Positions 7,904-19,467 of a stretch of 32,000 bases of DNA are shown here, one piece after another. Position 1 is the stretch's first letter. Every line of letters begins with the position of its first letter. Both the position numbers and the translations under genes were made by a program. The stretch comes from Nostoc sp. DedQUE08. GTDB taxonomy: Bacteria > Cyanobacteriota > Cyanobacteriia > Cyanobacteriales > Nostocaceae. The notes beneath the pieces are model-generated. The model was not told the origin of the DNA. It was given only the letters and a program-made list of their open reading frames with translations, and did no database searches. Where the stretch lies: NCBI RefSeq assembly GCF_034530895.1, contig NZ_JAVRCD010000005.1, positions 27,908 to 59,907 on the forward strand. Direction: 5' to 3'.

Positions 7904-10345
7904 TTAACACTCCAAGTATTTTTTTATCACTAAATTTACTGGGCAATCAGGGTGTAAACAATGACGATGGCATTGCAACTTTTGTTGTTCGGCACGAATT
8001 TCATTAACGTGTTTCCTCAGTAACTTCCAAATGGTTTTTAGGCGTTCAGTTGGTGAGGTAACATTATCATCATCTTCGTTCAACAAGTCTTCCTTAATCT
8101 TACCAGAAGGTAGGAGAAATTCTACCCTGCCACTGTGTTCAATAATGCCAAAATCTACGTCTGCTGCTTTAATTACAGCCTGAACCACACACTTAGAGCC
8201 GCATTCTGCACCAAAGCTGGTTTGAATCTCCTCTAAATATTCATATCCTTCCTGATATCTTGAAGGGTAGAAAGGTTCAAAACGTTGAAAGTAGGCGCTG
8301 TCTTTTTGAAGAAATGTTAAATACTCGTCGTAGTTAAACAAGAAGTCTTTACGCCGATAAACTGTTTGACTGACACTCCCTTTGAGACGGCGTAGTATAG
8401 TTAACTCCATCCATGTAGCAAATCCTTCATTCAGGATAATACTACTTTGATGCAGAGCTTCAATTTCTGACTTGTATTCCTGATGCAGAAGTCTAGGATA
8501 GGGAGATTTCAATCCTTCGCTATCCACTTTACGAAGCAATCCATGACTGTATAAGATTGCTAGTTGCTGTCCTACTTTTGTATGCTTGTAGAAAAATCCG
8601 TGACCGTACTTTTCATGTAAAAGTAAGGCTGCAATATTACCTTCTAGCCATGTTTGACCGTAATGCTCATCTCCCTCTATACCCTGGAAATTATACGCTA
8701 ACTGTTGCTCAAAAAATTGATGTTCTTTGACAAGATGTGCTGCTAATTTTGGATCGTAGGGAATACAACAACCATATAGGGGTGAATAAGTAGGCGCAAT
8801 CCACTGTAGTAATTTTTCAACTAGTGGTGAAAAACGCTTAGTTTCAGCTCTGGCTGCTTGTAGAGCTTCTAGGAGTTGCTCTTTGGTACTGTAGTTATAA
8901 AGGCGATTGACTTGTTCTTCAGGAGTCAACAATTCAAAGGGAATTTCTCGTATTTCTTCACTATCAAACTCTTGGCGTATTTGAGATACTTGATAATGAA
9001 TTTCTGCTGCTAAGGGTGTCACTACGTCGCGTTGTATTTTTTCAATTTTGGTCTTTGCAGATGGATATGCATGAACCAGGCGAGTAATTTTTTGATTAAT
9101 ATAGCTGATATGGAGAGTAATTAACCAATCCCCTGGATCTAAGACTGTCAAATACCATCGTTCTGTTGATATTTGTTCTACTTTAATATGAGTTAGGGGA
9201 CACTCTAGCTGCATTCTTAAGGGAACAGCTTTTGCATGATTCTTCCAACGAGCGATCGCCTGTACTTCAAAAGTAACTCCAGTTTCGACAATTTCTTGAG
9301 CTTTTCCTTGAGGATTGAGGAATACAAGGTCAAATTCTGCATCTGGTATACACTGGAATTGAGCAACTGGAGCGAGAAACAAAGATGAGGTTTTACTAGT
9401 TTCTGAATTACCTGGTTCGGGAATATCTATAGTTAATCTGAGAGTTTGCTGTCCTATTTGCTGAGGAATAACAGTCCATTGCAATTGAGTTTTTCCGTTC
9501 CCTGGAAGAAAACGAATTTTTTTGCTTGGTTCTTGAATTAGAATATCTGTATCTGACTCTAACACACAAGTTATATTCTCTAAACGTTGCAATTTGGGGT
9601 TAGCAATAACAATTGAAAATTTTGCACTTTGTTTGTAATTTACTTCTGTAGCAATACGAGCATCACGACAGTCTAAGGAATTTTGATGAGCTAGCCAACA
9701 AAGGATATTTGATGCTAGTTTTCTGTTATTACCAGTATCAATATATTTATCGCTAAAGATTAAATAATTTCCTAAAATTGCTACTCGTCCTGATTGATTA
9801 CTTCCATCCACTTCCAGCGCAGCGAGTAAAGTTTTGCCAGTATCAGGCAAAGTAGCAATTATATCAACTGGATAAGGAGAATTGGATAGTGTTTTGATAT
9901 AAACAGGCTCTCTAATCTTTAATTGAGATACTTCAGAACTAATATAGTGTGGTAATAAGTTAAATACTTGTTCTGGAGGATGATTTAATAACTCTTCAAA
10001 GCGTAATCCTAAAGATTCTAAGACAAAATTTATGCTGTCATCTTTTATAACAAGCGATTCCTGGTCACTTGCAATTAGAAGTGAGTTTCCTTGTTTGACA
10101 AAACTAACTATTGCTTTCACTTCCTCTGCACTCAAAGGAGATTTAGGAGCAGCCAGAATTAGCATCTGAAAATCTTGAAGTACCTGACGAGTCAGCAGTT
10201 CCTTTTTAAAGGAGATTGCATTATCACCAAATAACTGTTTTACCTGACTGCACAGGATTGTCCATGCTTCTTTTGGAGTATTGTCTCCCTGCGACTGTGA
10301 ACAGGACAACTGGTCATGAGATTCATCAAATAGAATTTTTATCAC
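7904..10345 (-). CDS. Large multidomain protein: DUF4350/GldG-like N-terminus, Ig-like middle, zincin-like (HExxGH ... NEGFA) C-terminal region, terminal Cys/His cluster
   Basis: 813-aa ORF with a GTG start. 'ILFDESHDQ...MLILAAPKSPLSAEEVKAIVSFVKQGNSLLIASD' resembles the DUF4350/GldG N-domain. 'HEKYGH' lies at nt 8600-8617 and 'NEGFA' at 8417-8431. 'CHRHCLHPDC' lies at 7943-7972. I saw no signal peptide and no Walker A motif. Confidence 0.75.
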   Translation of the reverse strand: MIKILFDESHDQLSCSQSQGDNTPKEAWTILCSQVKQLFGDNAISFKKELLTRQVLQDFQMLILAAPKSPLSAEEVKAIVSFVKQGNSLLIASDQESLVIKDDSINFVLESLGLRFEELLNHPPEQVFNLLPHYISSEVSQLKIREPVYIKTLSNSPYPVDIIATLPDTGKTLLAALEVDGSNQSGRVAILGNYLIFSDKYIDTGNNRKLASNILCWLAHQNSLDCRDARIATEVNYKQSAKFSIVIANPKLQRLENITCVLESDTDILIQEPSKKIRFLPGNGKTQLQWTVIPQQIGQQTLRLTIDIPEPGNSETSKTSSLFLAPVAQFQCIPDAEFDLVFLNPQGKAQEIVETGVTFEVQAIARWKNHAKAVPLRMQLECPLTHIKVEQISTERWYLTVLDPGDWLITLHISYINQKITRLVHAYPSAKTKIEKIQRDVVTPLAAEIHYQVSQIRQEFDSEEIREIPFELLTPEEQVNRLYNYSTKEQLLEALQAARAETKRFSPLVEKLLQWIAPTYSPLYGCCIPYDPKLAAHLVKEHQFFEQQLAYNFQGIEGDEHYGQTWLEGNIAALLLHEKYGHGFFYKHTKVGQQLAILYSHGLLRKVDSEGLKSPYPRLLHQEYKSEIEALHQSSIILNEGFATWMELTILRRLKGSVSQTVYRRKDFLFNYDEYLTFLQKDSAYFQRFEPFYPSRYQEGYEYLEEIQTSFGAECGSKCVVQAVIKAADVDFGIIEHSGRVEFLLPSGKIKEDLLNEDDDNVTSPTERLKTIWKLLRKHVNEIRAEQQKLQCHRHCLHPDCPVNLVIKKYLEC

Positions 10346-12599: not shown

Positions 12600-13184
12600 A
12601 TGTTCTCATCTCCTTTGGTTTTGCAAATTCCGTCATCAATGCAAATGACAGACGAACAATTTTTTGAATTCTGTCAGGTGAATCGTGACTTACGCATTGA
12701 GCGCAATAAATTTGGAGAATTGGTAATTATGCCTCCTACTGGTTCAGAGACAGGAAATCGAGAAGGTAACATATTTGGGCAATTGTGGGTTTGGTCAGAA
12801 CAAGATGGCACAGGTATAACTTTTAGCTCTAGTACTGGGTTTAAGCTATCAACAGGTGCAGAACGCTCTCCAGATGCTTCCTGGATTAAACTAGAACGCT
12901 GGAATGCTCTGTCTCCAGAACAGCAGCGAAAGTTTGCTCCCATTTGTCCAGATTTTGTAGTCGAACTCAAATCTCCTAGCGACAACCTCCAGACTTTAAA
13001 GGAAAAAATGGAGGAATATATGAATGAGCCAGGAATACAGTTAGGCTGGTTAATTGACCGTAAGCAGCGTAAAGTTTATATTTATCGTCCTGGATTGCCA
13101 GAAGAATGTTTAGATAATCCTGCTAGTGTAAGCGGCGAGTTGGTATTGCCTGGGTTTATTTTGAATATGAGTAAAATTTGGTGA
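12600..13184 (+). CDS. Uma2-family (DUF820) PD-(D/E)xK endonuclease
   Basis: 'MTDEQFFEFCQVN...ELVIMPPTG...ERSPDASW...CPDFVVELKSPSD...KVYIYRP' is the pattern of the highly expanded cyanobacterial Uma2 family. Confidence 0.88.
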   Translation: MFSSPLVLQIPSSMQMTDEQFFEFCQVNRDLRIERNKFGELVIMPPTGSETGNREGNIFGQLWVWSEQDGTGITFSSSTGFKLSTGAERSPDASWIKLERWNALSPEQQRKFAPICPDFVVELKSPSDNLQTLKEKMEEYMNEPGIQLGWLIDRKQRKVYIYRPGLPEECLDNPASVSGELVLPGFILNMSKIW

Positions 13185-14363: not shown

Positions 14364-15053
14364 TTGCAAGCAACAGAAATTAAGGATCGGTTAAAGTCCC
14401 TTATCGAGCAAGCCTCCTCGATAGATCATAATCTAGCGAGAAGATTAGAAGAAATCAATCGTTGGGTAAAAGACATCAAGCCAGGTTCTCTGACTGCAAA
14501 ACCCTTTGTAATTGCCTTTCTGCTAGAGGTGATTACAGATTCCACGATTTGGCTGATGATTAAATCCTTACCTTCAGAAGAGGAACAAAAAGCAAAGTTC
14601 GAGCTGATGACGCCGATTGAGAGATATTGGTATGGTTATTTATTTCCCAGATGGTTCAATGCAAGTGACTCCAAGTTTTATATTTGGAAACAAAAATTAA
14701 TGGCAGGCGAGTTTAATCAGGTTGATGATGATATCATTAGATCGATAGCCCAAGATATTGTTCAGCGAGAAGGTAGTTTTTGGCAGCGTTATATAGCCGA
14801 CCTTTCAATGGCAACAGATTTAATTGTTAGTCGTAACAATCAACCACTGTGCATTCAAGTTACCAGTGTTAGTGAAGAACTTAATCACCAAAAGTATGAA
14901 GCTTGGCAAAATACACTGCGATCGTGGGAAATCGAGAGGGGGCTGTTCTTAAGTTACAATCCCAAAGATGCTAATTTTGTCAACCAGTTAGTCAACGTGG
15001 CCCTGTATAACAGTGATTACCTTTCTGGTGGCAAATATTTAAAATTTTCGTGA
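14364..15053 (+). CDS. Hypothetical protein (229 aa)
   Basis: Open frame with only a TTG start available. I recognise no family. The C-terminal 'DLIVSRNNQPLCIQVTS' has the spacing of a degenerate PD-(D/E)xK core but lacks the acidic and Lys residues. Confidence 0.5.
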   Translation: MQATEIKDRLKSLIEQASSIDHNLARRLEEINRWVKDIKPGSLTAKPFVIAFLLEVITDSTIWLMIKSLPSEEEQKAKFELMTPIERYWYGYLFPRWFNASDSKFYIWKQKLMAGEFNQVDDDIIRSIAQDIVQREGSFWQRYIADLSMATDLIVSRNNQPLCIQVTSVSEELNHQKYEAWQNTLRSWEIERGLFLSYNPKDANFVNQLVNVALYNSDYLSGGKYLKFS

Positions 15054-15081
15054 TTTTTCAGGAATTTCATATTTCAGATTT

Positions 15082-15543
15082 GTGTCTAGCCTATATACTT
15101 ACGTGCTAATTACAGCTTTTATGCCTAATAAAAGAGAAACTCACTGCAACAATCAAGTAGATACATTTGCTGAGGCTTTAGCGACGGCGCGACAAATGCA
15201 GCAAAACTGGCTAACTTATGGGGTTGATTTTGTGAATATTTACGTTGAAGATGTGGAGGGAGACTGGCTAGAAACGTGGGGACATGATGAAATATTAGGT
15301 AATTTTCAATTAGATACTATCAAAGAATTTCTGGTAAGTAATGATAGTGTAGCTGTGAAAGTAAGAGAGCATTTAGGAGAGCGATCGCTGTTTGATTTTG
15401 CCGTAAACTTAGATGAATCTTGGAGAATTTCTGAAGTAGATGACAGGCTATCTGCTGTGATAAACTTGTTAGCTGGTGAAGAAAATAGTATTGATACAGA
15501 TTTAGCAAATAGTCTGCTGGTAAAGTTGGCAGAGATTTTGTGA
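15082..15543 (+). CDS. Hypothetical acidic protein (153 aa)
   Basis: Same strand as, and 28 nt after, the previous ORF. GTG start at 15082, or ATG at 15121 (MPNKRETH...). I recognise no family. Confidence 0.5.
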   Translation: MSSLYTYVLITAFMPNKRETHCNNQVDTFAEALATARQMQQNWLTYGVDFVNIYVEDVEGDWLETWGHDEILGNFQLDTIKEFLVSNDSVAVKVREHLGERSLFDFAVNLDESWRISEVDDRLSAVINLLAGEENSIDTDLANSLLVKLAEIL

Positions 15544-15684: not shown

Positions 15685-15915
15685 AATATCGAAGCATTTG
15701 TGATAAACATTCAAATGTTTCTTATCAATGTTCAAGCAATTGTGACTAACATTCAAACATTGATAAAAAACGTTTAAGCATTTGTGGTAAACACTCAAAT
15801 ATTGCTTATCAATGTTGAAACAATTGTGACTAACATTTAAGCATTTATTACGAACATTCAAATGTTGCTTATCAATGTTGAAACAATTGTAACTAATGTT
15901 GAAAGTTTTCCCTGA
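15685..15915. repeat. Tandem array of eleven 21-bp units (consensus about AAYRTTNAARCAWTTGTRAYN) with a 63-bp higher-order period
   Basis: Splitting the region by hand into 21-mers gives 11 aligned units. Units 2/6/9, 3/7/10 and 1/5/8 are near-identical triplets. Units contain short inverted repeats such as AACATT-N2-AATGTT and CAATTG. A 127-aa minus-strand ORF (15553..15936) reads through the array as a 7-aa repeat. Confidence 0.9.
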
Positions 15916-16028
15916 CAGCCTACCTTCAACTTTCACCAGAGAAACTGGATTAGCCTCTATCTATCTGGAATCTAAACATCTGTTATTGTATCCATCAGTG
16001 AAGATGTCGCCAGATAAGGTAGGATAAT

Positions 16029-16445
16029 TTGGAACCAATTACAGCTAGTGCGATCGCAACTCTCGCTTTTACCAAAGCATTTGAGAAAACTATCGAGAAA
16101 TTCACTGAAGCAGCCCTTGGTAAAATGGATGAGCTGCGAAAAAAGATTTGGGGTAAGTTACGGGGAAATTTAAAAGCAGAAACAGCCCTCGTTGCTGCTG
16201 AAAAAGGCTCGAAACCCGATTTAGACAGGGTTGCTGCTTACTTGCAGATAGTTTTACATAAAGAACCGGAGTTTGCGAAAGAAGTAGAAACACTGGCTCG
16301 TGAAATAGAGGCTGGTAAGATAGTAGACAAAAGCACTATGACCCAAATCAATCAAGATAATGCCAGGGGATGGCAAACTAAGGTTGAGGGTGGAACAGTT
16401 TATCAAGGCGATATTAACATTCATCATGCACGCCCCAATTCTTGA
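16029..16445 (+). CDS. Bell-like helical effector protein with a C-terminal amyloid-signalling-type motif (BASS-like)
   Basis: 138-aa ORF. TTG is the only start, preceded by an in-frame TAG at 16020. It has a hydrophobic/amphipathic helical N-terminus ('EPITASAIATLAFTKAFEKTIEKF'). The C-terminal 'NQDNARGWQTKVEGGTVYQGDINIH' (16350-16424) is repeated at the N-terminus of the next gene. Confidence 0.75.
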   Translation: MEPITASAIATLAFTKAFEKTIEKFTEAALGKMDELRKKIWGKLRGNLKAETALVAAEKGSKPDLDRVAAYLQIVLHKEPEFAKEVETLAREIEAGKIVDKSTMTQINQDNARGWQTKVEGGTVYQGDINIHHARPNS

Positions 16446-16456
16446 ATTGAGCCATC

Positions 16457-18586
16457 ATGAACCAAAGCAACCAAGACAATGCCAAGGGCTGGCAAACTCA
16501 GGTTGAGGGTGGAACAGTTTATCAAGGCGATATTCGTATCTACAATTCCCCTACTGGGCAGTTACACTCATCTCCTCCAAATAATATTCCTTATCGGGGT
16601 GTCGCCAACTTTGTCGGGCGGGATGAGAAACTTGTAGAACTACATAAAAAGTTGCTGCAAAATGACAACGCGGCAATTTTGGCTGTGGCTGGGATGGGAG
16701 GAATGGGTAAAACTGAACTGACGACACAATACGCACAGCGCTACAAAGTCAATTATCCTGGTGGGCTTTGCTGGTTAGATGCCAGAAAACCAGATTTAGC
16801 AGCAGAGATTGTGGAGTTTGCCCGGTTTTACATGAAACTGGAAGTACCGCAAACCTTATTGACTTCCCAGGAACAAGCAAAATGGTGCTGGCATAATTGG
16901 CAACCACAAACAGGACTAGTCTTGGTAGTATTGGACAATGTTGACGATGAGACTAACTGGAATAATTGTCGCCAAGTCCTGCCAACAGATAACCGCTTCT
17001 GTATATTGACGACAACTCGGTTGCGAAATCTCGGTTCAACAGTTCAACAGATAACTTTGGATGAACTCTTACCAAAGGATGCTTTGAATTTGTTGACAGC
17101 TTTGTTGGGCGAGAATGATAGGCGAGTGCAACGGGAACCACAAACGGCAGCAAATTTATGTAAATGGCTGGGATATCTGCCTTTAGGTTTGCAATTAGTG
17201 GGTGCGTATTTGGCAGAAGATCCAAATTTGTCTTTGGCAGAGATTTTACAGCGATTACCAGCCCAGCAAAAATCTCAATTGGAAGCCGTATTTGAATTAA
17301 GCTGGCAACAACTCGATTATATGACACAGTGTGTCGGTGAATTATTGAGTTTATTTGCCCCAGATATAATTCCTTGGCAAATAGTTGAATCTGTCAGTCA
17401 GCAGTTAAATTGGGCAAAGGCAGATGTTGACGAGGCGAGAAAGCAACTTTATCAGCGCCATTTAATTCAAAGCGTAGTAGAAGGAGAAAGTTGCTATAAA
17501 ATTCATCCTTTAACTAGAAAGTTTTTGCAAGGGAAACTGGTAAGGTCAAACACAGCTGATGACCTCAAAAAAGCCTTTGCCGCAGCATTAGTAGAAATTG
17601 CTCAGAAAATACCTCAATCTCCTACCCTTGAGGATATCAAGTCAGTGCAACTGGCAATTCCTCATTTAACCAAGGTGGCACAAAATTTGATTGATGTTGT
17701 GCAGGATGAAAATTTAACATCGGTTTTCACTGGCTTGGGCAAATTCTATAAAGGACAGGGTTTGTATACCCTTGCAGCACCTTGGTATCAGCAAGGATTA
17801 TCAACAGTTCAAACCCGTTTGGGAGAAACACATCCCAATGTTGCCGCCAGCCTGAACAACCTGGCATTACTCTACAATTTTCAAGGACGCTACGACCAAG
17901 CCGAACCCCTGTTTCTGCAAGCTTTAGAACTGAGTAAACGCCTGCTGGGAGATGCACATCCCGATGTTGCCACCAGCCTGAACAACATGGCAAATCTCTA
18001 CAAATCTCAAGGGCGCTATGACCAAGCCGAACCCCTGTATCTGCAAGCTTTAGAACTTTATAAACGCCTGCTGGGAGAAGCACATCCCAATGTTGCCACC
18101 AGCCTGAACAACCTGGCAAAACTCTACGATTCTCAAGGACGCCACGACCAAGCCGAACCCCTGTTTCTGCAAGCTTTAGAACTGAGAAAACGCTTGCTGG
18201 GAGAAACACATCCCGATGTTGCCGCCAGCCTGAACAACCTGGCAAATCTCTACAATTCTCAAGGACGCTACAACCAAGCCGAACCCCTGTTTCTGCAAGC
18301 TTTAGAACTGAGAAAACGCCTGCTGGGAGAAGCACATCCCGATGTTGCCACCAGCCTGAACAACCTGGCAAATCTCTACAATTTTCAAGGACGCTACGAC
18401 CAAGCCGAACTCCTGTATCTGCAAGCCTTAAAAATTTGTCAGCAGGTGCTTGGGGTAAATCATCCCAATACGGTTACTGTTCGGGAAAATCTAGAAAATC
18501 TTCAAGCTCAAAAGAGTGCTAGCCGTAAAGTTAAGAATAATGCTAACAATTCCTGGTGGGAAAAGCTTTTAGGGTTATTTGAGTGA
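16457..18586 (+). CDS. STAND NTPase (NLR-like): N-terminal BASS-like motif, NB-ARC domain, TPR repeats
   Basis: The N-terminus is 'NQDNAKGWQTQVEGGTVYQGDIRIY' (16469-16543). Walker A 'GMGGMGKT' (16691-16714), Walker B 'LVLVVLDNVDD', 'CILTTTR' and GLPL-like 'GYLPLGLQLVGAYL'. These are followed by about 7 tetratricopeptide units of 42 aa ('HP.VA.SLNNLA.LY..QGRY.QAEPL.LQALEL.KRLLGE'). Confidence 0.92.
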   Translation: MNQSNQDNAKGWQTQVEGGTVYQGDIRIYNSPTGQLHSSPPNNIPYRGVANFVGRDEKLVELHKKLLQNDNAAILAVAGMGGMGKTELTTQYAQRYKVNYPGGLCWLDARKPDLAAEIVEFARFYMKLEVPQTLLTSQEQAKWCWHNWQPQTGLVLVVLDNVDDETNWNNCRQVLPTDNRFCILTTTRLRNLGSTVQQITLDELLPKDALNLLTALLGENDRRVQREPQTAANLCKWLGYLPLGLQLVGAYLAEDPNLSLAEILQRLPAQQKSQLEAVFELSWQQLDYMTQCVGELLSLFAPDIIPWQIVESVSQQLNWAKADVDEARKQLYQRHLIQSVVEGESCYKIHPLTRKFLQGKLVRSNTADDLKKAFAAALVEIAQKIPQSPTLEDIKSVQLAIPHLTKVAQNLIDVVQDENLTSVFTGLGKFYKGQGLYTLAAPWYQQGLSTVQTRLGETHPNVAASLNNLALLYNFQGRYDQAEPLFLQALELSKRLLGDAHPDVATSLNNMANLYKSQGRYDQAEPLYLQALELYKRLLGEAHPNVATSLNNLAKLYDSQGRHDQAEPLFLQALELRKRLLGETHPDVAASLNNLANLYNSQGRYNQAEPLFLQALELRKRLLGEAHPDVATSLNNLANLYNFQGRYDQAELLYLQALKICQQVLGVNHPNTVTVRENLENLQAQKSASRKVKNNANNSWWEKLLGLFE
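17831..18460 (+). repeat. Five near-identical 126-bp in-frame tandem repeats (TPR units) inside the NLR gene
   Basis: Units start at 17831, 17957, 18083, 18209 and 18335. A more diverged unit lies on each side (17705 and 18461). Nucleotide identity between units is visibly very high. Confidence 0.95.
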
Positions 18587-18710: not shown

Positions 18711-18854
18711 AATAATAAACGACAACCCGAATTCAATAAACGACTCCCCGAATTCAATAAACGACTTCCCGAATTCGATAAATGACTCCCCGAATTCAAT
18801 AAACGACACCCCGAATTCGATGAACGACACCTCGAATTCGATGAACGACACCCC
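18711..18854. repeat. Tandem array of 21-bp units (GAATTCRATRAAYGACWYCCC), six full copies plus one partial
   Basis: Full units start at 18729, 18750, 18771, 18792, 18813 and 18834, and each begins with an EcoRI site. The array lies about 125 nt downstream of the NLR stop codon. Confidence 0.95.
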
Positions 18855-19467
18855 CCTTAATCCCCCCTCTACGGTGTACACACATGTTGGTAATCAAGCA
18901 CAAATCCCGATTTACCCCCCTTAACAAACTTCGGCGGGTTGAAGTCCCCGGCTTCTAACAAGCCGCAAGTTTTGTGGTGGGGTCTAAATCCTCGTTACAA
19001 AACTTAATTGCGAATTGCGAATTGTTTTAATCCCCCCGATGCATTGGGGGGAAATGTCCGGTTCTCCCCCTTTATAAAGGGGAGTTAGAGGGGGTCAGAA
19101 AGACTTGTCTCTACACCGTAGCCTTGGTAAGGGGAGGGTGCGCGATCGCGCGGGTGGGGTATTTCTGTACGTCACAAAGTTGAAATCTCCTGTAAGTAAT
19201 GCGTTGTAGAAGTGTTTTATTCATAAAAAAATATTCATAAATTATGACGATATTTTTGTTTTTATAAGTTAGTTATAGATGCCAAATAACGACAGCAAAA
19301 AAATAATTATAGCTACAAATAAATACTTTTAACTGTTAATTTATTTTTGTTTTAGGGCTTTACAAGTATAAAGTTATACTTTAATATACAAATAAGAAAG
19401 GCGATCGCCCTCTGCCAAGAATCTGCGATCGCCTTTCTGTAAACCCCCATTCTGGGAGACAATTACA

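What the first reader, a model, noticed from the sequence alone, without database searches (positions are those of the whole stretch)
16029..18586. Effector / amyloid-signalling motif / NLR pair: the same 25-residue motif ends the small helical protein and begins the adjacent NB-ARC-TPR NTPase
Seen in the sequence:
- The 138-aa protein ends 'NQDNARGWQTKVEGGTVYQGDINIH' (16350-16424).
- The NTPase, starting 11 nt after that protein's stop codon, begins 'NQDNAKGWQTQVEGGTVYQGDIRIY' (16469-16543).
- 21 of 25 residues are identical, including a 34-nt stretch that is identical at the DNA level.
- The motif is rich in Gly/Gln/Asn with alternating hydrophobics.
- The small protein's N-terminus is a hydrophobic/amphipathic helix bundle candidate.
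- The NTPase has full Walker A, Walker B and GLPL motifs plus TPR repeats.

Established knowledge:
- In filamentous fungi (the HET-S/NWD2 type), an NLR templates the amyloid fold of a matching motif on a separately encoded membrane-targeting effector.
- The same arrangement has been described by comparative genomics in multicellular bacteria, as Bell-domain effectors with BASS motifs.

Inference: this is a prion-like signal-transduction cell-death or defence cassette. The ligand sensed by the TPR array and the killing mechanism of the helical domain are unknown.
Basis: partly seen in the sequence, partly recalled or inferred. Interest (0 to 1): 0.8.

Follow-up and report, generated by a model that had tools for sequence, protein, structure and literature searches.

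The report
Amyloid-motif effector and NLR gene pair
Two adjacent Nostoc genes, a small helical "Bell" protein and an NB-ARC/TPR receptor, carry the same 25-residue motif, which makes them an unannotated member of the published BASS9 amyloid-signalling class, so the pair itself is ordinary for that class.

Summary
ORF 16029-16445 (138 aa) ends with a motif that recurs at the start of ORF 16457-18586 (709 aa, NB-ARC plus TPR). They share 21/25 residues, 64/75 nt and a 35-nt identical run.

The small protein is 69% identical to Calothrix PCC 6303 AFZ02241.1, which Dyrka et al. 2020 list as a Bell/BASS9 effector. A profile built from their nine BASS9 rows hits both window proteins (48 and 42 bits) and nothing else in the window.

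About 18 Nostoc genomes keep the pair at the same chromosomal locus. Their TPR arrays differ by whole 42-aa units. Amyloid formation, toxicity and the trigger remain untested. Verdict: new member of a known kind, modest interest.

One side result goes beyond the finding. In about 35 related loci, plus 29 metagenome loci, only one motif copy exists. These include the syntenic Scytonema locus and pCC7120gamma of Anabaena PCC 7120. There the effector ORF ends in a conserved TGA-C followed by a covarying hairpin. The NTPase continues in frame with no usable start codon. This suggests programmed stop-codon readthrough, which I did not find described.

The parts
16016..16024 (+). Shine-Dalgarno-like AAGGTAGGA, ending 4 nt before the TTG start of the effector gene
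   Evidence: Read from the sequence. The same sequence precedes the start codon in Nostoc orthologues.
16029..16445 (+). [quoted passage not shown] It equals MDZ8064969.1 / WP_322699453.1, annotated 'hypothetical protein', Nostoc sp. DedQUE08.
   Evidence: ORF list. The TTG start corresponds to ATG or GTG at the same codon in Calothrix, Scytonema and Nodularia. There are 271 homologues, those named by a source being cyanobacterial and most about 134-150 aa. The exact sequence is in NCBI.
16029..16337 (+). Bell-type helical domain, residues 1-103. It has a hydrophobic N-terminal helix (MEPITASAIATLAF) with Glu at position 2.
   Evidence: AF2 model: helices 6-18, 27-44, 48-58, 62-78 and 80-95, with pLDDT about 70-85 over residues 1-99. 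It is conserved across 35 aligned homologues. It is 69% identical to the published Bell protein AFZ02241.1.
16338..16424 (+). Effector-side BASS9 motif, residues 104-132: MTQINQDNARGWQTKVEGGTVYQGDINIH
   Evidence: BASS9 profile, 48.1 bits. Identity with the NLR N-terminus. The AF2 model is disordered or low-confidence here.
16446..16456 (+). 11-nt spacer between the effector stop codon and the NLR ATG. The pair is probably one transcript (inferred).
   Evidence: Read from the sequence. The same 11-nt spacing occurs in 17 of 18 Nostoc orthologous loci.
16457..18586 (+). NLR-type STAND NTPase gene, 709 aa: BASS9 motif, NB-ARC domain, TPR array
   Evidence: ORF; Pfam; NCBIfam TPR/AfsR-like partial hits.
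16457..16543 (+). NLR-side BASS9 motif, residues 1-29: MNQSNQDNAKGWQTQVEGGTVYQGDIRIY
   Evidence: BASS9 profile, 41.5 bits; BLASTP against the effector C-terminus, E 3e-14.
16625..17251 (+). NB-ARC nucleotide-binding oligomerisation domain. Walker A is at 16691-16714, Walker B at 16916-16948, ILTTTR at 17003-17020 and GYLPLG at 17171-17188.
   Evidence: PF00931, E 7.4e-18, residues 57-265; motif positions.
17822..18451 (+). Five near-identical 42-aa TPR units (residues 456-665) inside a longer TPR region (about residues 419-692). This is the presumed ligand sensor.
   Evidence: TRF finds period 126 nt, 4.8 copies, 90% matches. Units are 85-94% identical at the DNA level, and the closest pairs differ mostly at first codon positions. 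The full-length orthologous NLRs run from 583 to 1088 aa, differing from 709 aa by about 126, 85, 169 and 379 aa, close to whole 42-aa units.

Best explanation
This is a two-gene, NLR-controlled cell-death or defence module of the Bell/BASS/NLR class, motif family BASS9, on the chromosome of a lichen-associated Nostoc.

Proposed working, with shown and inferred steps marked:

1. The two genes are co-expressed. Adjacency, the same strand and an 11-nt spacer are shown; co-transcription is inferred.
2. The TPR array of the NB-ARC protein binds a still unknown ligand. The TPR array and its rapid repeat-number turnover are shown; the ligand is unknown.
3. Ligand binding releases NB-ARC-driven oligomerisation. 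This is inferred from STAND/NLR biology.
4. Oligomerisation brings the N-terminal BASS9 segments together so that they adopt a cross-beta fold. This is inferred by analogy with NWD2/HET-S and with tested BASS1, BASS3 and BASS11 motifs.
5. That fold templates the matching C-terminal BASS9 segment of the free 138-aa protein. The matched motif is shown; templating is inferred.
6. Conversion releases the N-terminal hydrophobic helix of the Bell domain, which attacks the membrane and kills or arrests the cell. This is inferred from HET-S and Bab.

The biological trigger (phage, other non-self, or a developmental cue in the filament) is unknown.
For: - The shared motif is real and far above chance. 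The two copies also share codons beyond what protein-level selection explains: 17/21 against 9.6 expected, P = 5e-4.
- Both copies match a profile built from published BASS9 rows at 48 and 42 bits; nothing else in the window exceeds 4 bits.
- The effector is 69% identical to AFZ02241.1, a listed Bell/BASS9 protein.
- The receptor has NB-ARC with intact Walker A/B and GLPL, plus TPRs.
- The pair is kept, with the motif on both partners, in about 33 of 80 Bell loci from other cyanobacteria. These include Calothrix, Nodularia, Scytonematopsis and Crocosphaera.
- Across divergent pairs the cognate effector/NLR motifs score higher than non-cognate ones: 85.2 against 68.7, permutation p = 3e-4, n = 13.
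- The Bell domain stays conserved while the C-terminal motif is exchanged among at least three types. This shows the modular build expected of a signalling tag.
- TPR units are 85-94% identical and their number varies between orthologues, as described for diversifying NLR sensors.
- A related Bell-like/BASS11 pair (Bab/Agp) has been shown experimentally to be an abortive-infection system that works through amyloid conversion.
Against: - No experiment exists for BASS9 or for any Bell/NLR pair.
- The helical domain has no Pfam, NCBIfam or PADLOC match and only a marginal hit to a PHROG of unknown function (E 0.0036).
- Its AF2 model (pLDDT 68) finds no significant structural neighbour in the PDB: best E = 1.1, and HeLo, MLKL or Bab folds were not retrieved. 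The link to pore-forming domains therefore rests on the published family assignment, not on my own fold test.
- Within the closely related Nostoc set, cognate motifs are not significantly better matched than non-cognate ones (p = 0.085). Mismatched VYQ/AYV combinations also occur.
- The locus lies among housekeeping genes, not in a defence island or prophage.
- Part of the cognate signal across distant pairs may reflect shared phylogeny.
Confidence: 0.75

Rival explanations
1. The shared segment is a homotypic adaptor that only mediates stoichiometric binding of the small protein to the NTPase. It would act like a Death-fold or EAD-type docking tag, or as an inhibitor/chaperone interaction, with no amyloid or prion-like templating.
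For: - Aravind-type conflict systems couple effectors and NTPases through shared adaptor domains, and a CHAT-EAD7 protein lies in the same window.
- BASS9 has not been tested for fibril formation.
- AF2 gives no confident fold for the motif.
Against: - The segment is only about 25 residues, G/N/Q-rich with alternating hydrophobic residues, and has no globular fold. Known adaptor domains are 60-100-residue folded modules.
- All BASS motifs tested so far (BASS1, BASS3, BASS11) formed amyloid and behaved as prions.
Confidence: 0.12
2. The motif identity is a neutral by-product of a local duplication or gene conversion between the 3' end of one gene and the 5' end of the next, and it has no signalling role.
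For: - There is a 35-nt identical DNA run and an excess of identical codons.
- Some relatives carry a longer duplicated piece of the Bell 3' half at the NLR N-terminus.
Against: - The motif is retained on both partners across genera whose Bell domains are only 50-70% identical and whose motif DNA has diverged.
- Different motif families show the same paired arrangement.
- Duplication explains the origin of the second copy, not its long-term maintenance.
Confidence: 0.04
3. The module is a real Bell/BASS/NLR signalling pair, but its role is not immunity. It would instead control filament development or regulated cell death, for example necridia or hormogonium release, or symbiosis-related signalling in this lichen cyanobiont.
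For: - The locus is chromosomal and syntenic across many Nostocales, among housekeeping genes. It is not in a mobile defence island.
- No PADLOC system matches.
- The class is restricted to multicellular prokaryotes.
Against: - TPR repeat-number turnover between close strains, and non-synonymous differences between units, are the signature of arms-race sensors.
- The one tested relative is antiphage.
- This rival differs from the best explanation only in the trigger, not the mechanism.
Confidence: 0.09

Closest known systems
BASS9 Bell/NLR pairs of Dyrka et al. 2020, e.g. Calothrix sp. PCC 6303 AFZ02241.1 / AFZ02242.1 and Microcystis aeruginosa PCC 7806 CAO90856 / CAO90857
   Same: - The Bell domain is homologous (69% identity to AFZ02241.1).
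- The motif is the same (DNAKGWQTKVEGGT.Y).
- The motif sits at the effector C-terminus and at the N-terminus of the NLR.
- The genes are collinear and adjacent, and the receptor is NB-ARC/TPR.
   Different: - The two copies match more closely here (21/25) than in the Calothrix pair; the 'lcs' column of Table S2 reads 12 for that pair.
- The motif core is VYQGD where the listed members have AYIGE.
- The spacer is 11 nt against 17-31 nt.
- The Microcystis and Pseudanabaena NLRs carry about 50 extra N-terminal residues before the motif; this one does not.
- This genome is not in the published table.
HET-S / NWD2 of Podospora anserina (HeLo effector, HRAM motif, NACHT-WD NLR)
   Same: - The logic is the same: adjacent genes, a short amyloid motif at the effector C-terminus and the NLR N-terminus, and a helical membrane-targeting effector with an N-terminal hydrophobic helix.
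- The sensor repeats are highly similar to one another.
   Different: - There is no detectable sequence or fold match to HeLo in my searches.
- The receptor is NB-ARC/TPR rather than NACHT/WD.
- The effector carries one motif copy, whereas HET-S has two pseudo-repeats.
- The host is a bacterium.
Bab / Agp of E. coli ECOR25 (Bell-related 'Babybell' effector, BASS11 motif; Ibarlosa et al. 2024 preprint)
   Same: - A small helical effector carries a C-terminal amyloid motif that is repeated at the N-terminus of the adjacent TPR-containing sensor.
- The system was shown to act by amyloid conversion and to cause abortive infection.
   Different: - The sensor there is TPR-GreA/B-C-PIN, not a STAND NTPase.
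- The motif family differs (BASS11).
- Bab/Agp lies in prophage defence hotspots, whereas this pair is in a stable chromosomal context.

Membership tests
Bell-domain effectors (Dyrka et al. 2020) | Sequence homology to proteins assigned to the Bell family | tested here: met
   69% identity, E 6e-56, full length, to P0006 = AFZ02241.1, a Bell-side entry of Table S2.
Bell-domain effectors (Dyrka et al. 2020) | Short protein (about 120-140 aa) with an N-terminal alpha-helical domain of about 100 aa | tested here: met
   The protein is 138 aa. The AF2 model has helices spanning residues 6-95 and a disordered tail at 100-138.
Bell-domain effectors (Dyrka et al. 2020) | Hydrophobic N-terminal helix with an acidic residue at position 2 or 3 | tested here: met
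   The sequence begins M-E-P-I-T-A-S-A-I-A-T-L-A-F. M1, E2 and P3 are nearly invariant in 35 homologues.
Bell-domain effectors (Dyrka et al. 2020) | Helical-bundle fold related to HeLo / Hell / MLKL / Bab pore-forming domains | tested here: inconclusive
   The AF2 model has mean pLDDT 68. Foldseek against the PDB gives a best E of 1.1; an RPW8-like NRG1 CC-R domain appears only at E 5.3. A profile search against PDB sequences gives nothing below E 0.2.
Bell-domain effectors (Dyrka et al. 2020) | Membrane-targeting, cell-killing activity | not testable with these tools
   This needs expression and toxicity assays.
BASS9 amyloid signalling motif | Match to the BASS9 (nlr_20) motif profile | tested here: met
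   An HMM built from the 9 published rows scores 48.1 and 41.5 bits against a background maximum of 3.9 bits. This is my rebuild, not the authors' own pHMM.
BASS9 amyloid signalling motif | The same motif at the C-terminus of the effector and the N-terminus of an NB-ARC/NACHT protein encoded within 5 kb, usually collinear | tested here: met
   Residues 104-132 of the effector and residues 1-29 of the NLR. The genes are on the same strand with an 11-nt gap.
BASS9 amyloid signalling motif | About 25 residues, enriched in G/N/Q/V/I, depleted in P/L/K, with beta propensity | tested here: met
   The 25-residue effector motif has G4 N3 Q3 V2 I2, no P, no L and one K. AF2 places only short, low-confidence strands at 118-123.
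BASS9 amyloid signalling motif | Forms amyloid fibrils or prion-like aggregates, and the NLR-side motif converts the effector-side motif | not testable with these tools
   The paper's section headings and abstract show that BASS1 and BASS3 were tested, and the 2024 preprint tested BASS11. BASS9 is not named in the main text.
NLR-like STAND NTPases (NB-ARC + TPR) | NB-ARC domain with Walker A, Walker B and GLPL motifs | tested here: met
   PF00931, E 7e-18. GMGGMGKT at 79-86, LVLVVLDNVDD at 154-164, GYLPLG at 239-244.
NLR-like STAND NTPases (NB-ARC + TPR) | C-terminal superstructure-forming repeats with high internal conservation | tested here: met
   TPR_12, E 5e-104. There are five 42-aa units at 85-94% nt identity, and copy number varies among orthologues.
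Catalogued antiphage defence systems (PADLOC 2.0) | Match to a defence-system protein model and location in a defence island | tested here: not met
   The only PADLOC matches are to the TPR region: a generic TPR model (PDLC01169) and a weak hit to candidate model PDC-S39 (E 0.0016); the effector has no hit. The neighbours are housekeeping genes.

The most novel reading that the evidence does not exclude
The window's two-gene form, with the motif duplicated, may be one of two interchangeable solutions to the same problem.

In many relatives there is only one motif copy. These include the syntenic Scytonema locus and plasmid pCC7120gamma of the model strain Anabaena/Nostoc PCC 7120. In them the effector ORF ends in a conserved UGA-C, followed 8 nt later by a covarying hairpin. 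The NTPase continues in the same frame with no ATG/GTG/TTG before its P-loop.

The reading this allows is programmed stop-codon readthrough. One mRNA would give abundant free Bell-motif effector and rare Bell-motif-NLR fusion, so sensor and effector would share literally the same amyloid motif. The pair in this window would then be the 'resolved' descendant, in which a duplication of the effector 3' end replaced the recoding signal.

I found no description of this in the papers I searched.
Probability: 0.45. Interest if true: 0.8.

Novelty: new member of a known kind. Interest (0 to 1): 0.35.

Why it matters
For the window itself, the result gives a name and a testable mechanism to two genes that NCBI annotates as 'hypothetical protein' and, at best, a generic TPR/NB-ARC protein. 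It also adds a well-matched BASS9 pair (21/25 identical). This pair has many natural orthologous variants, with VYQ/AYV motif alleles and NLRs of 583 to 1088 aa that differ in TPR-unit number. Those variants could serve as a natural mutant series for cross-seeding and specificity studies. The function of Bell/NLR pairs in multicellular bacteria is still open.

The comparative by-product matters more. If the in-frame UGA junction is a real readthrough signal, it would be a rare case of programmed readthrough in a bacterial chromosomal or plasmid gene. It would also explain how an NLR and its effector can share one amyloid motif and be made at a fixed low-to-high ratio. It can be tested directly in Anabaena PCC 7120.

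Tried and rejected
- **Family libraries, effector:** Pfam, NCBIfam and PADLOC gave nothing for the 138-aa protein, and PHROGs gave only a marginal hit to a family of unknown function (E 0.0036). Three homologues carry a precomputed PF20701 tag; I re-scanned two of them and it was not reproduced.
- **Fold comparison:** the AF2 model searched against the PDB with Foldseek, and the alignment profile searched against PDB sequences, gave no significant hit. I could not confirm a HeLo- or Bab-like fold.
- **RNA families:** Rfam gave no family in the window, and none at the junction element of relatives. The junction element is absent from the window.
- **Promoter and terminator scan around the pair:** not above the shuffled expectation. 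There are only weak terminator-like sites at 15513-15533 and 18949-18965.
- **Co-variation within close Nostoc orthologues:** not significant, p = 0.085.
- **Partner for the CHAT-EAD7 protein:** a search for a second protein sharing its C-terminus found nothing in the window.
- **Fused Bell-NLR proteins:** a search for proteins with a sense codon at the junction found none among 169 hits.
- **Alternative readings of the in-frame stop, considered and judged unlikely:**
  - Reinitiation at a start codon inside the junction. No ATG/GTG/TTG is present, and the first codon is CTA as often as CTG.
  - Pseudogenes. The stop is TGA in 61 of the 64 in-frame junctions (32/35 and 29/29), and the downstream ORFs are long and intact.
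  - Selenocysteine. There is no catalytic context, and to my knowledge Nostocales lack Sec machinery; I did not test this.
- **Thermodynamics of the hairpin:** weak, with z scores of -0.2 to -1.7 against shuffles.
Full report
**1. The observation**

The window holds two adjacent genes on the + strand.

- The first runs 16029-16445. It has a TTG start preceded by AAGGTAGGA, encodes 138 aa and ends ...MTQINQDNARGWQTKVEGGTVYQGDINIHHARPNS.
- After its TGA (16443-16445) and 11 nt, the second gene starts at ATG 16457 and runs to 18586 (709 aa). It begins MNQSNQDNAKGWQTQVEGGTVYQGDIRIY.
- BLASTP of the two proteins gives 23/31 identities, E = 3e-14.
- Identical residues use the same codon in 17 of 21 cases, against 9.6 expected from window codon usage (P = 5e-4). 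The two copies therefore also share DNA-level ancestry, by duplication or gene conversion.
- The TTG start is supported by homology. Nostoc orthologues have TTG at the same codon with the same upstream sequence. Calothrix and Scytonema have ATG there, and Nodularia has GTG.

**2. The two proteins**

- The 709-aa protein has an NB-ARC domain (PF00931, E 7e-18, residues 57-265) and six TPR_12/TPR_10 matches.
- Its motifs are Walker A GMGGMGKT (79-86), Walker B LVLVVLDNVDD (154-164), ILTTTR (183-188) and GYLPLG (239-244).
- Residues 456-665 are five 42-aa TPR units. They form a 126-nt tandem repeat with 90% matches and pairwise DNA identity of 85-94%. The most similar units differ mainly at first codon positions, for example 7, 0 and 1 differences at codon positions 1, 2 and 3.
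- The 138-aa protein has no match in Pfam, NCBIfam or PADLOC, and only a marginal PHROGs hit to a family of unknown function.
- An AlphaFold2 model built with 35 homologues predicts helices at 6-18, 27-44, 48-58, 62-78 and 80-95. Block-mean pLDDT is 69-71 over residues 1-30 and 82-85 over residues 31-90, and the tail at 100-138 is low-confidence.
- The N-terminus, MEPITASAIATLAF, is hydrophobic with Glu at position 2 and is nearly invariant among homologues.

**3. Which family**

- A database search found 271 homologues. Those named by a source are cyanobacterial, and most are about 134-150 aa.
- One of them, P0006, is 69% identical (E 6e-56). It is AFZ02241.1 of Calothrix sp. PCC 6303.
- Supplementary Table S2 of Dyrka et al. 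2020 (bioRxiv 10.1101/2020.01.06.895854) lists AFZ02241.1 residues 104-126, MTQINQDNAKGWQTKVDGGTAYI. It is the Bell side of a 'bass_09 / nlr_20' pair with the adjacent NLR AFZ02242.1. Pairs from Microcystis, Pseudanabaena and Leptolyngbya are listed alongside it.
- I built a profile HMM from the nine published motif rows. It scores the window effector at 48.1 bits (E 1.9e-14) and the NLR at 41.5 bits (E 2.2e-12). The next best of 464 six-frame segments of the window scores 3.9 bits.
- The published description fits this locus point by point. It specifies Bell proteins of 120-140 aa, an acidic residue at position 2-3, motifs of about 25 residues rich in G/N/Q, collinear genes a few bases apart, NB-ARC/TPR receptors, and TPR units 80-90% identical to each other.
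- The window's exact protein is in NCBI as 'hypothetical protein', Nostoc sp. DedQUE08.

**4. Comparative evidence**

A scan of one genome per species returned 79 loci that encode relatives of the effector.

- *Synteny.* Eighteen Nostoc loci are collinear with the window. The same two hypothetical genes lie upstream (14364-15543), and TerC, ndk and speA lie downstream. In 17 of them the same 11-nt spacer separates the two genes.
- *Receptor length.* Full-length orthologous receptors are 583, 709/710, 794, 868/878 and 1087/1088 aa. They differ from 709 aa by about 126, 85, 169 and 379 aa, close to multiples of the 42-aa TPR unit. This is the repeat-number turnover expected of a diversifying sensor.
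- *How often the motif is paired.* In about 33 of 80 Bell genes the motif recurs at the N-terminus of a neighbouring P-loop NTPase.
- *Cognate against non-cognate motifs.* Across divergent pairs, cognate motifs match better than non-cognate ones: mean score 85.2 against 68.7, permutation p = 3e-4, n = 13. Within the close Nostoc set the difference is not significant (p = 0.085). Phylogeny may contribute to the first figure.
- *Coordinated variants.* Individual cases show coordinated change. In Nodularia, STGYQIGTATGTNYFG pairs with STGYQVGKATGNNHFG. In L008, both partners read GWQTQVKGG.
- *Modularity.* The Bell domain is conserved while the tail switches among at least three motif types.

**5. 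Mechanism**

What is shown:

- two co-oriented, almost abutting genes;
- a matched G/N/Q-rich tag of about 25-29 residues at the effector C-terminus and the receptor N-terminus;
- an intact STAND NTPase;
- a fast-evolving TPR array;
- a helical effector with a hydrophobic N-terminal helix.

What is inferred, by analogy with NWD2/HET-S and with the experimentally characterised Bab/Agp system, is this sequence:

1. A ligand binds the TPRs.
2. The NB-ARC domain oligomerises.
3. The clustered N-terminal tags adopt a cross-beta fold.
4. This fold templates the effector's tag.
5. The Bell domain is released to damage the membrane, and the cell dies or arrests.

The trigger is unknown. The locus is among housekeeping genes: glycosyltransferases, peroxiredoxin, DUF305, TerC, ndk, speA and ScpA. 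It is stably syntenic, which differs from the prophage-hotspot location of Bab/Agp. A non-immune role in filament biology therefore cannot be excluded.

**6. What I could not confirm**

- I could not confirm the fold relationship of the Bell domain to HeLo, MLKL or Bab. Foldseek against the PDB gave no hit better than E = 1.1, and a profile search of PDB sequences gave nothing below E = 0.2.
- BASS9 has not been tested for amyloid formation. BASS1 and BASS3 were tested in the 2020 paper and BASS11 in the 2024 preprint.
- The 2024 preprint states that the biological function of Bell/NLR pairs remains to be elucidated.

**7. A second architecture in relatives (outside the window)**

While pairing effectors with receptors I found that 35 of the 80 Bell genes have no second motif copy.

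- *The junction.* In these genes the effector ORF ends in a single stop codon: TGA in 32, TAA in 2 and TAG in 1. The same reading frame runs straight on into a P-loop NTPase. An example is ...ITFN*LQSPERERAKLNPPNNIPYRGVGNFVGR...GMGGVGKTELA.
- *No usable start codon.* The first in-frame ATG/GTG/TTG usually lies 37-54 codons downstream. In many loci the first in-frame ATG is the Met inside the P-loop itself.
- *Conserved element.* The junction is conserved at the nucleotide level: TGA CTN NAG YCG YCC GNN NGG GAA CGG RCA AAG TTA AAT CCC. The base after the stop is C in 37 of 39 distinct junctions.
- *Hairpin.* A 5-bp hairpin starts 8 nt after the stop.
  - 91.4% of cells are paired, against at most 40% in slid controls.
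  - One pair is C-G in 17 sequences and U-A in 15. Another is C-G in 25, G-C in 4 and U-A in 2.
  - 0 of 500 shuffles reach the observed covariation score.
  - RNAalifold finds the same helix, but with weak energy.
  - Single-sequence folds are not better than shuffles, with z from -0.2 to -1.7.
- *Nature of the conservation.* The 13 codons after the stop show no extra third-position variability. The conservation is therefore at the RNA or DNA level.
- *Independent sample.* A metagenome scan used a pattern that excluded the stop codon and returned 29 further loci. The codon 6 nt upstream of the pattern is TGA in 29 of 29. The upstream ORFs end in several different BASS-like motifs. The downstream in-frame ORFs are NB-ARC or other STAND NTPases, or in a few loci other proteins; three of the 29 are cut short or degenerate.
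- *No fused form.* A protein query spanning the junction found no fused protein with a sense codon among 169 hits.
- *Orthologous locus.* Scytonema loci L038 and L039 have this architecture and share TerC and ndk downstream with the window. The two architectures therefore occur at an orthologous locus.
- *Model organism.* Anabaena/Nostoc PCC 7120 has an example on plasmid pCC7120gamma. RefSeq starts the NB-ARC gene at an ATT codon, 21 codons after the TGA and in the same frame.
- *Prior description.* No Rfam family matches. I found no mention of readthrough in the 2020 paper or in full-text searches.
- *Reading and caveats.* The simplest reading is programmed UGA readthrough, giving both free effector and an effector-motif-NLR fusion. 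Because the junction cassette is homologous across loci, 'in frame' is not 64 independent trials. Non-canonical initiation has not been excluded experimentally. I put this reading at about 0.45.
- *Possible origin of the window's form.* Some receptors with a duplicated motif also carry a copy of the last Bell helices. P0234 aligns to effector residues 54-122, E = 6e-6. This fits an origin of the window's form by duplication of the effector 3' end.

**8. Verdict**

- The pair is a new, well-matched member of a known kind (Bell / BASS9 / NB-ARC-TPR), not a new kind.
- Interest for the window itself is modest, at 0.35.
- The readthrough-type junction in relatives is the part a specialist might find surprising, and it deserves its own follow-up.

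Noticed in passing
Related loci, not the window: e.g. L038 6430-6475, L037 6418-6463, L063 6418-6463, L109 (Nostoc sp. PCC 7120 pCC7120gamma, NC_003267.1) 4415-4483; metagenome loci L080-L108: In these loci the Bell+motif ORF ends in a conserved TGA-C. A covarying 5-bp hairpin follows 8 nt downstream. The NTPase continues in frame with no ATG/GTG/TTG before its P-loop, and there is no second motif copy. This is a candidate programmed stop-codon readthrough. In the PCC 7120 example RefSeq had to use an ATT start for the NB-ARC gene.
   Followed up: partly
window 5631-7019 (+): A 462-aa protein with a CHAT caspase-like protease domain (E 1.5e-21) and a C-terminal EAD7 effector-associated domain (E 4e-5, below the Pfam cutoff). 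It would be a second, separate NTPase-coupled conflict effector about 9 kb upstream. No partner sharing its C-terminus was found in the window.
   Followed up: partly
L025, L026, L027, L028, L032 (NLR N-termini); protein P0234: In some BASS9 receptors the motif sits at residues about 50-73. It follows an extension that aligns with the last helices of the Bell domain (P0234 against the window effector residues 54-122, E 6e-6). This suggests the receptor's tag arose by duplicating the effector's 3' half.
   Followed up: partly
L033 (Symplocastrum torsivum) 5995-10200; L027 (Anabaena minutissima) 6001-9584: L033 has both an in-frame-stop NTPase directly after the Bell gene and a second P-loop NTPase with an N-terminal BASS9 motif 1.8 kb downstream. 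L027 has two Bell-BASS9 genes in tandem before one receptor. One effector may therefore serve several sensors, and the reverse may also hold.
   Followed up: no
window 15692-15896 and 18714-18854: Two different tandem arrays with a 21-nt period lie in the intergenic regions on either side of the pair. The upstream array has consensus TTCAAGCAATTGTGACAAACA, also scored at periods of 42, 63 and 84 nt. The downstream array is AATAAACGACACCCCGAATTC x6.7. Both are conserved in several Nostoc orthologous loci. Their function is unknown.
   Followed up: no
window 14364-15053 (+) and 15082-15543 (+): Two hypothetical proteins (229 and 153 aa, with no significant hit in Pfam, NCBIfam, PADLOC or PHROGs) stay directly upstream of the pair in all Nostoc orthologous loci and in Nodularia. 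They are also nearby in Spirirestis (L043). Whether they belong to the system is unknown.
   Followed up: no
window 12600-13184 (+) and 2404-3591 (+): An Uma2-family putative endonuclease (E 3e-44) has a weak PADLOC PDC-S03 hit. A GT4 glycosyltransferase also matches the Pfam 'GT4-conflict' family (E 5e-14). These are minor hints of conflict-system genes in an otherwise housekeeping region.
   Followed up: no
L017 (Nostoc sp. CCCryo 231-06) and L045 (Nostoc sp. S13): In L017 the orthologous receptor lacks its central part: window 17086-18394 has no counterpart. In L045 the match to the window stops within the effector gene (at window 16276) and resumes only at the TerC region about 5 kb further on. 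These may be decay or assembly collapse of the locus in some strains.
   Followed up: no
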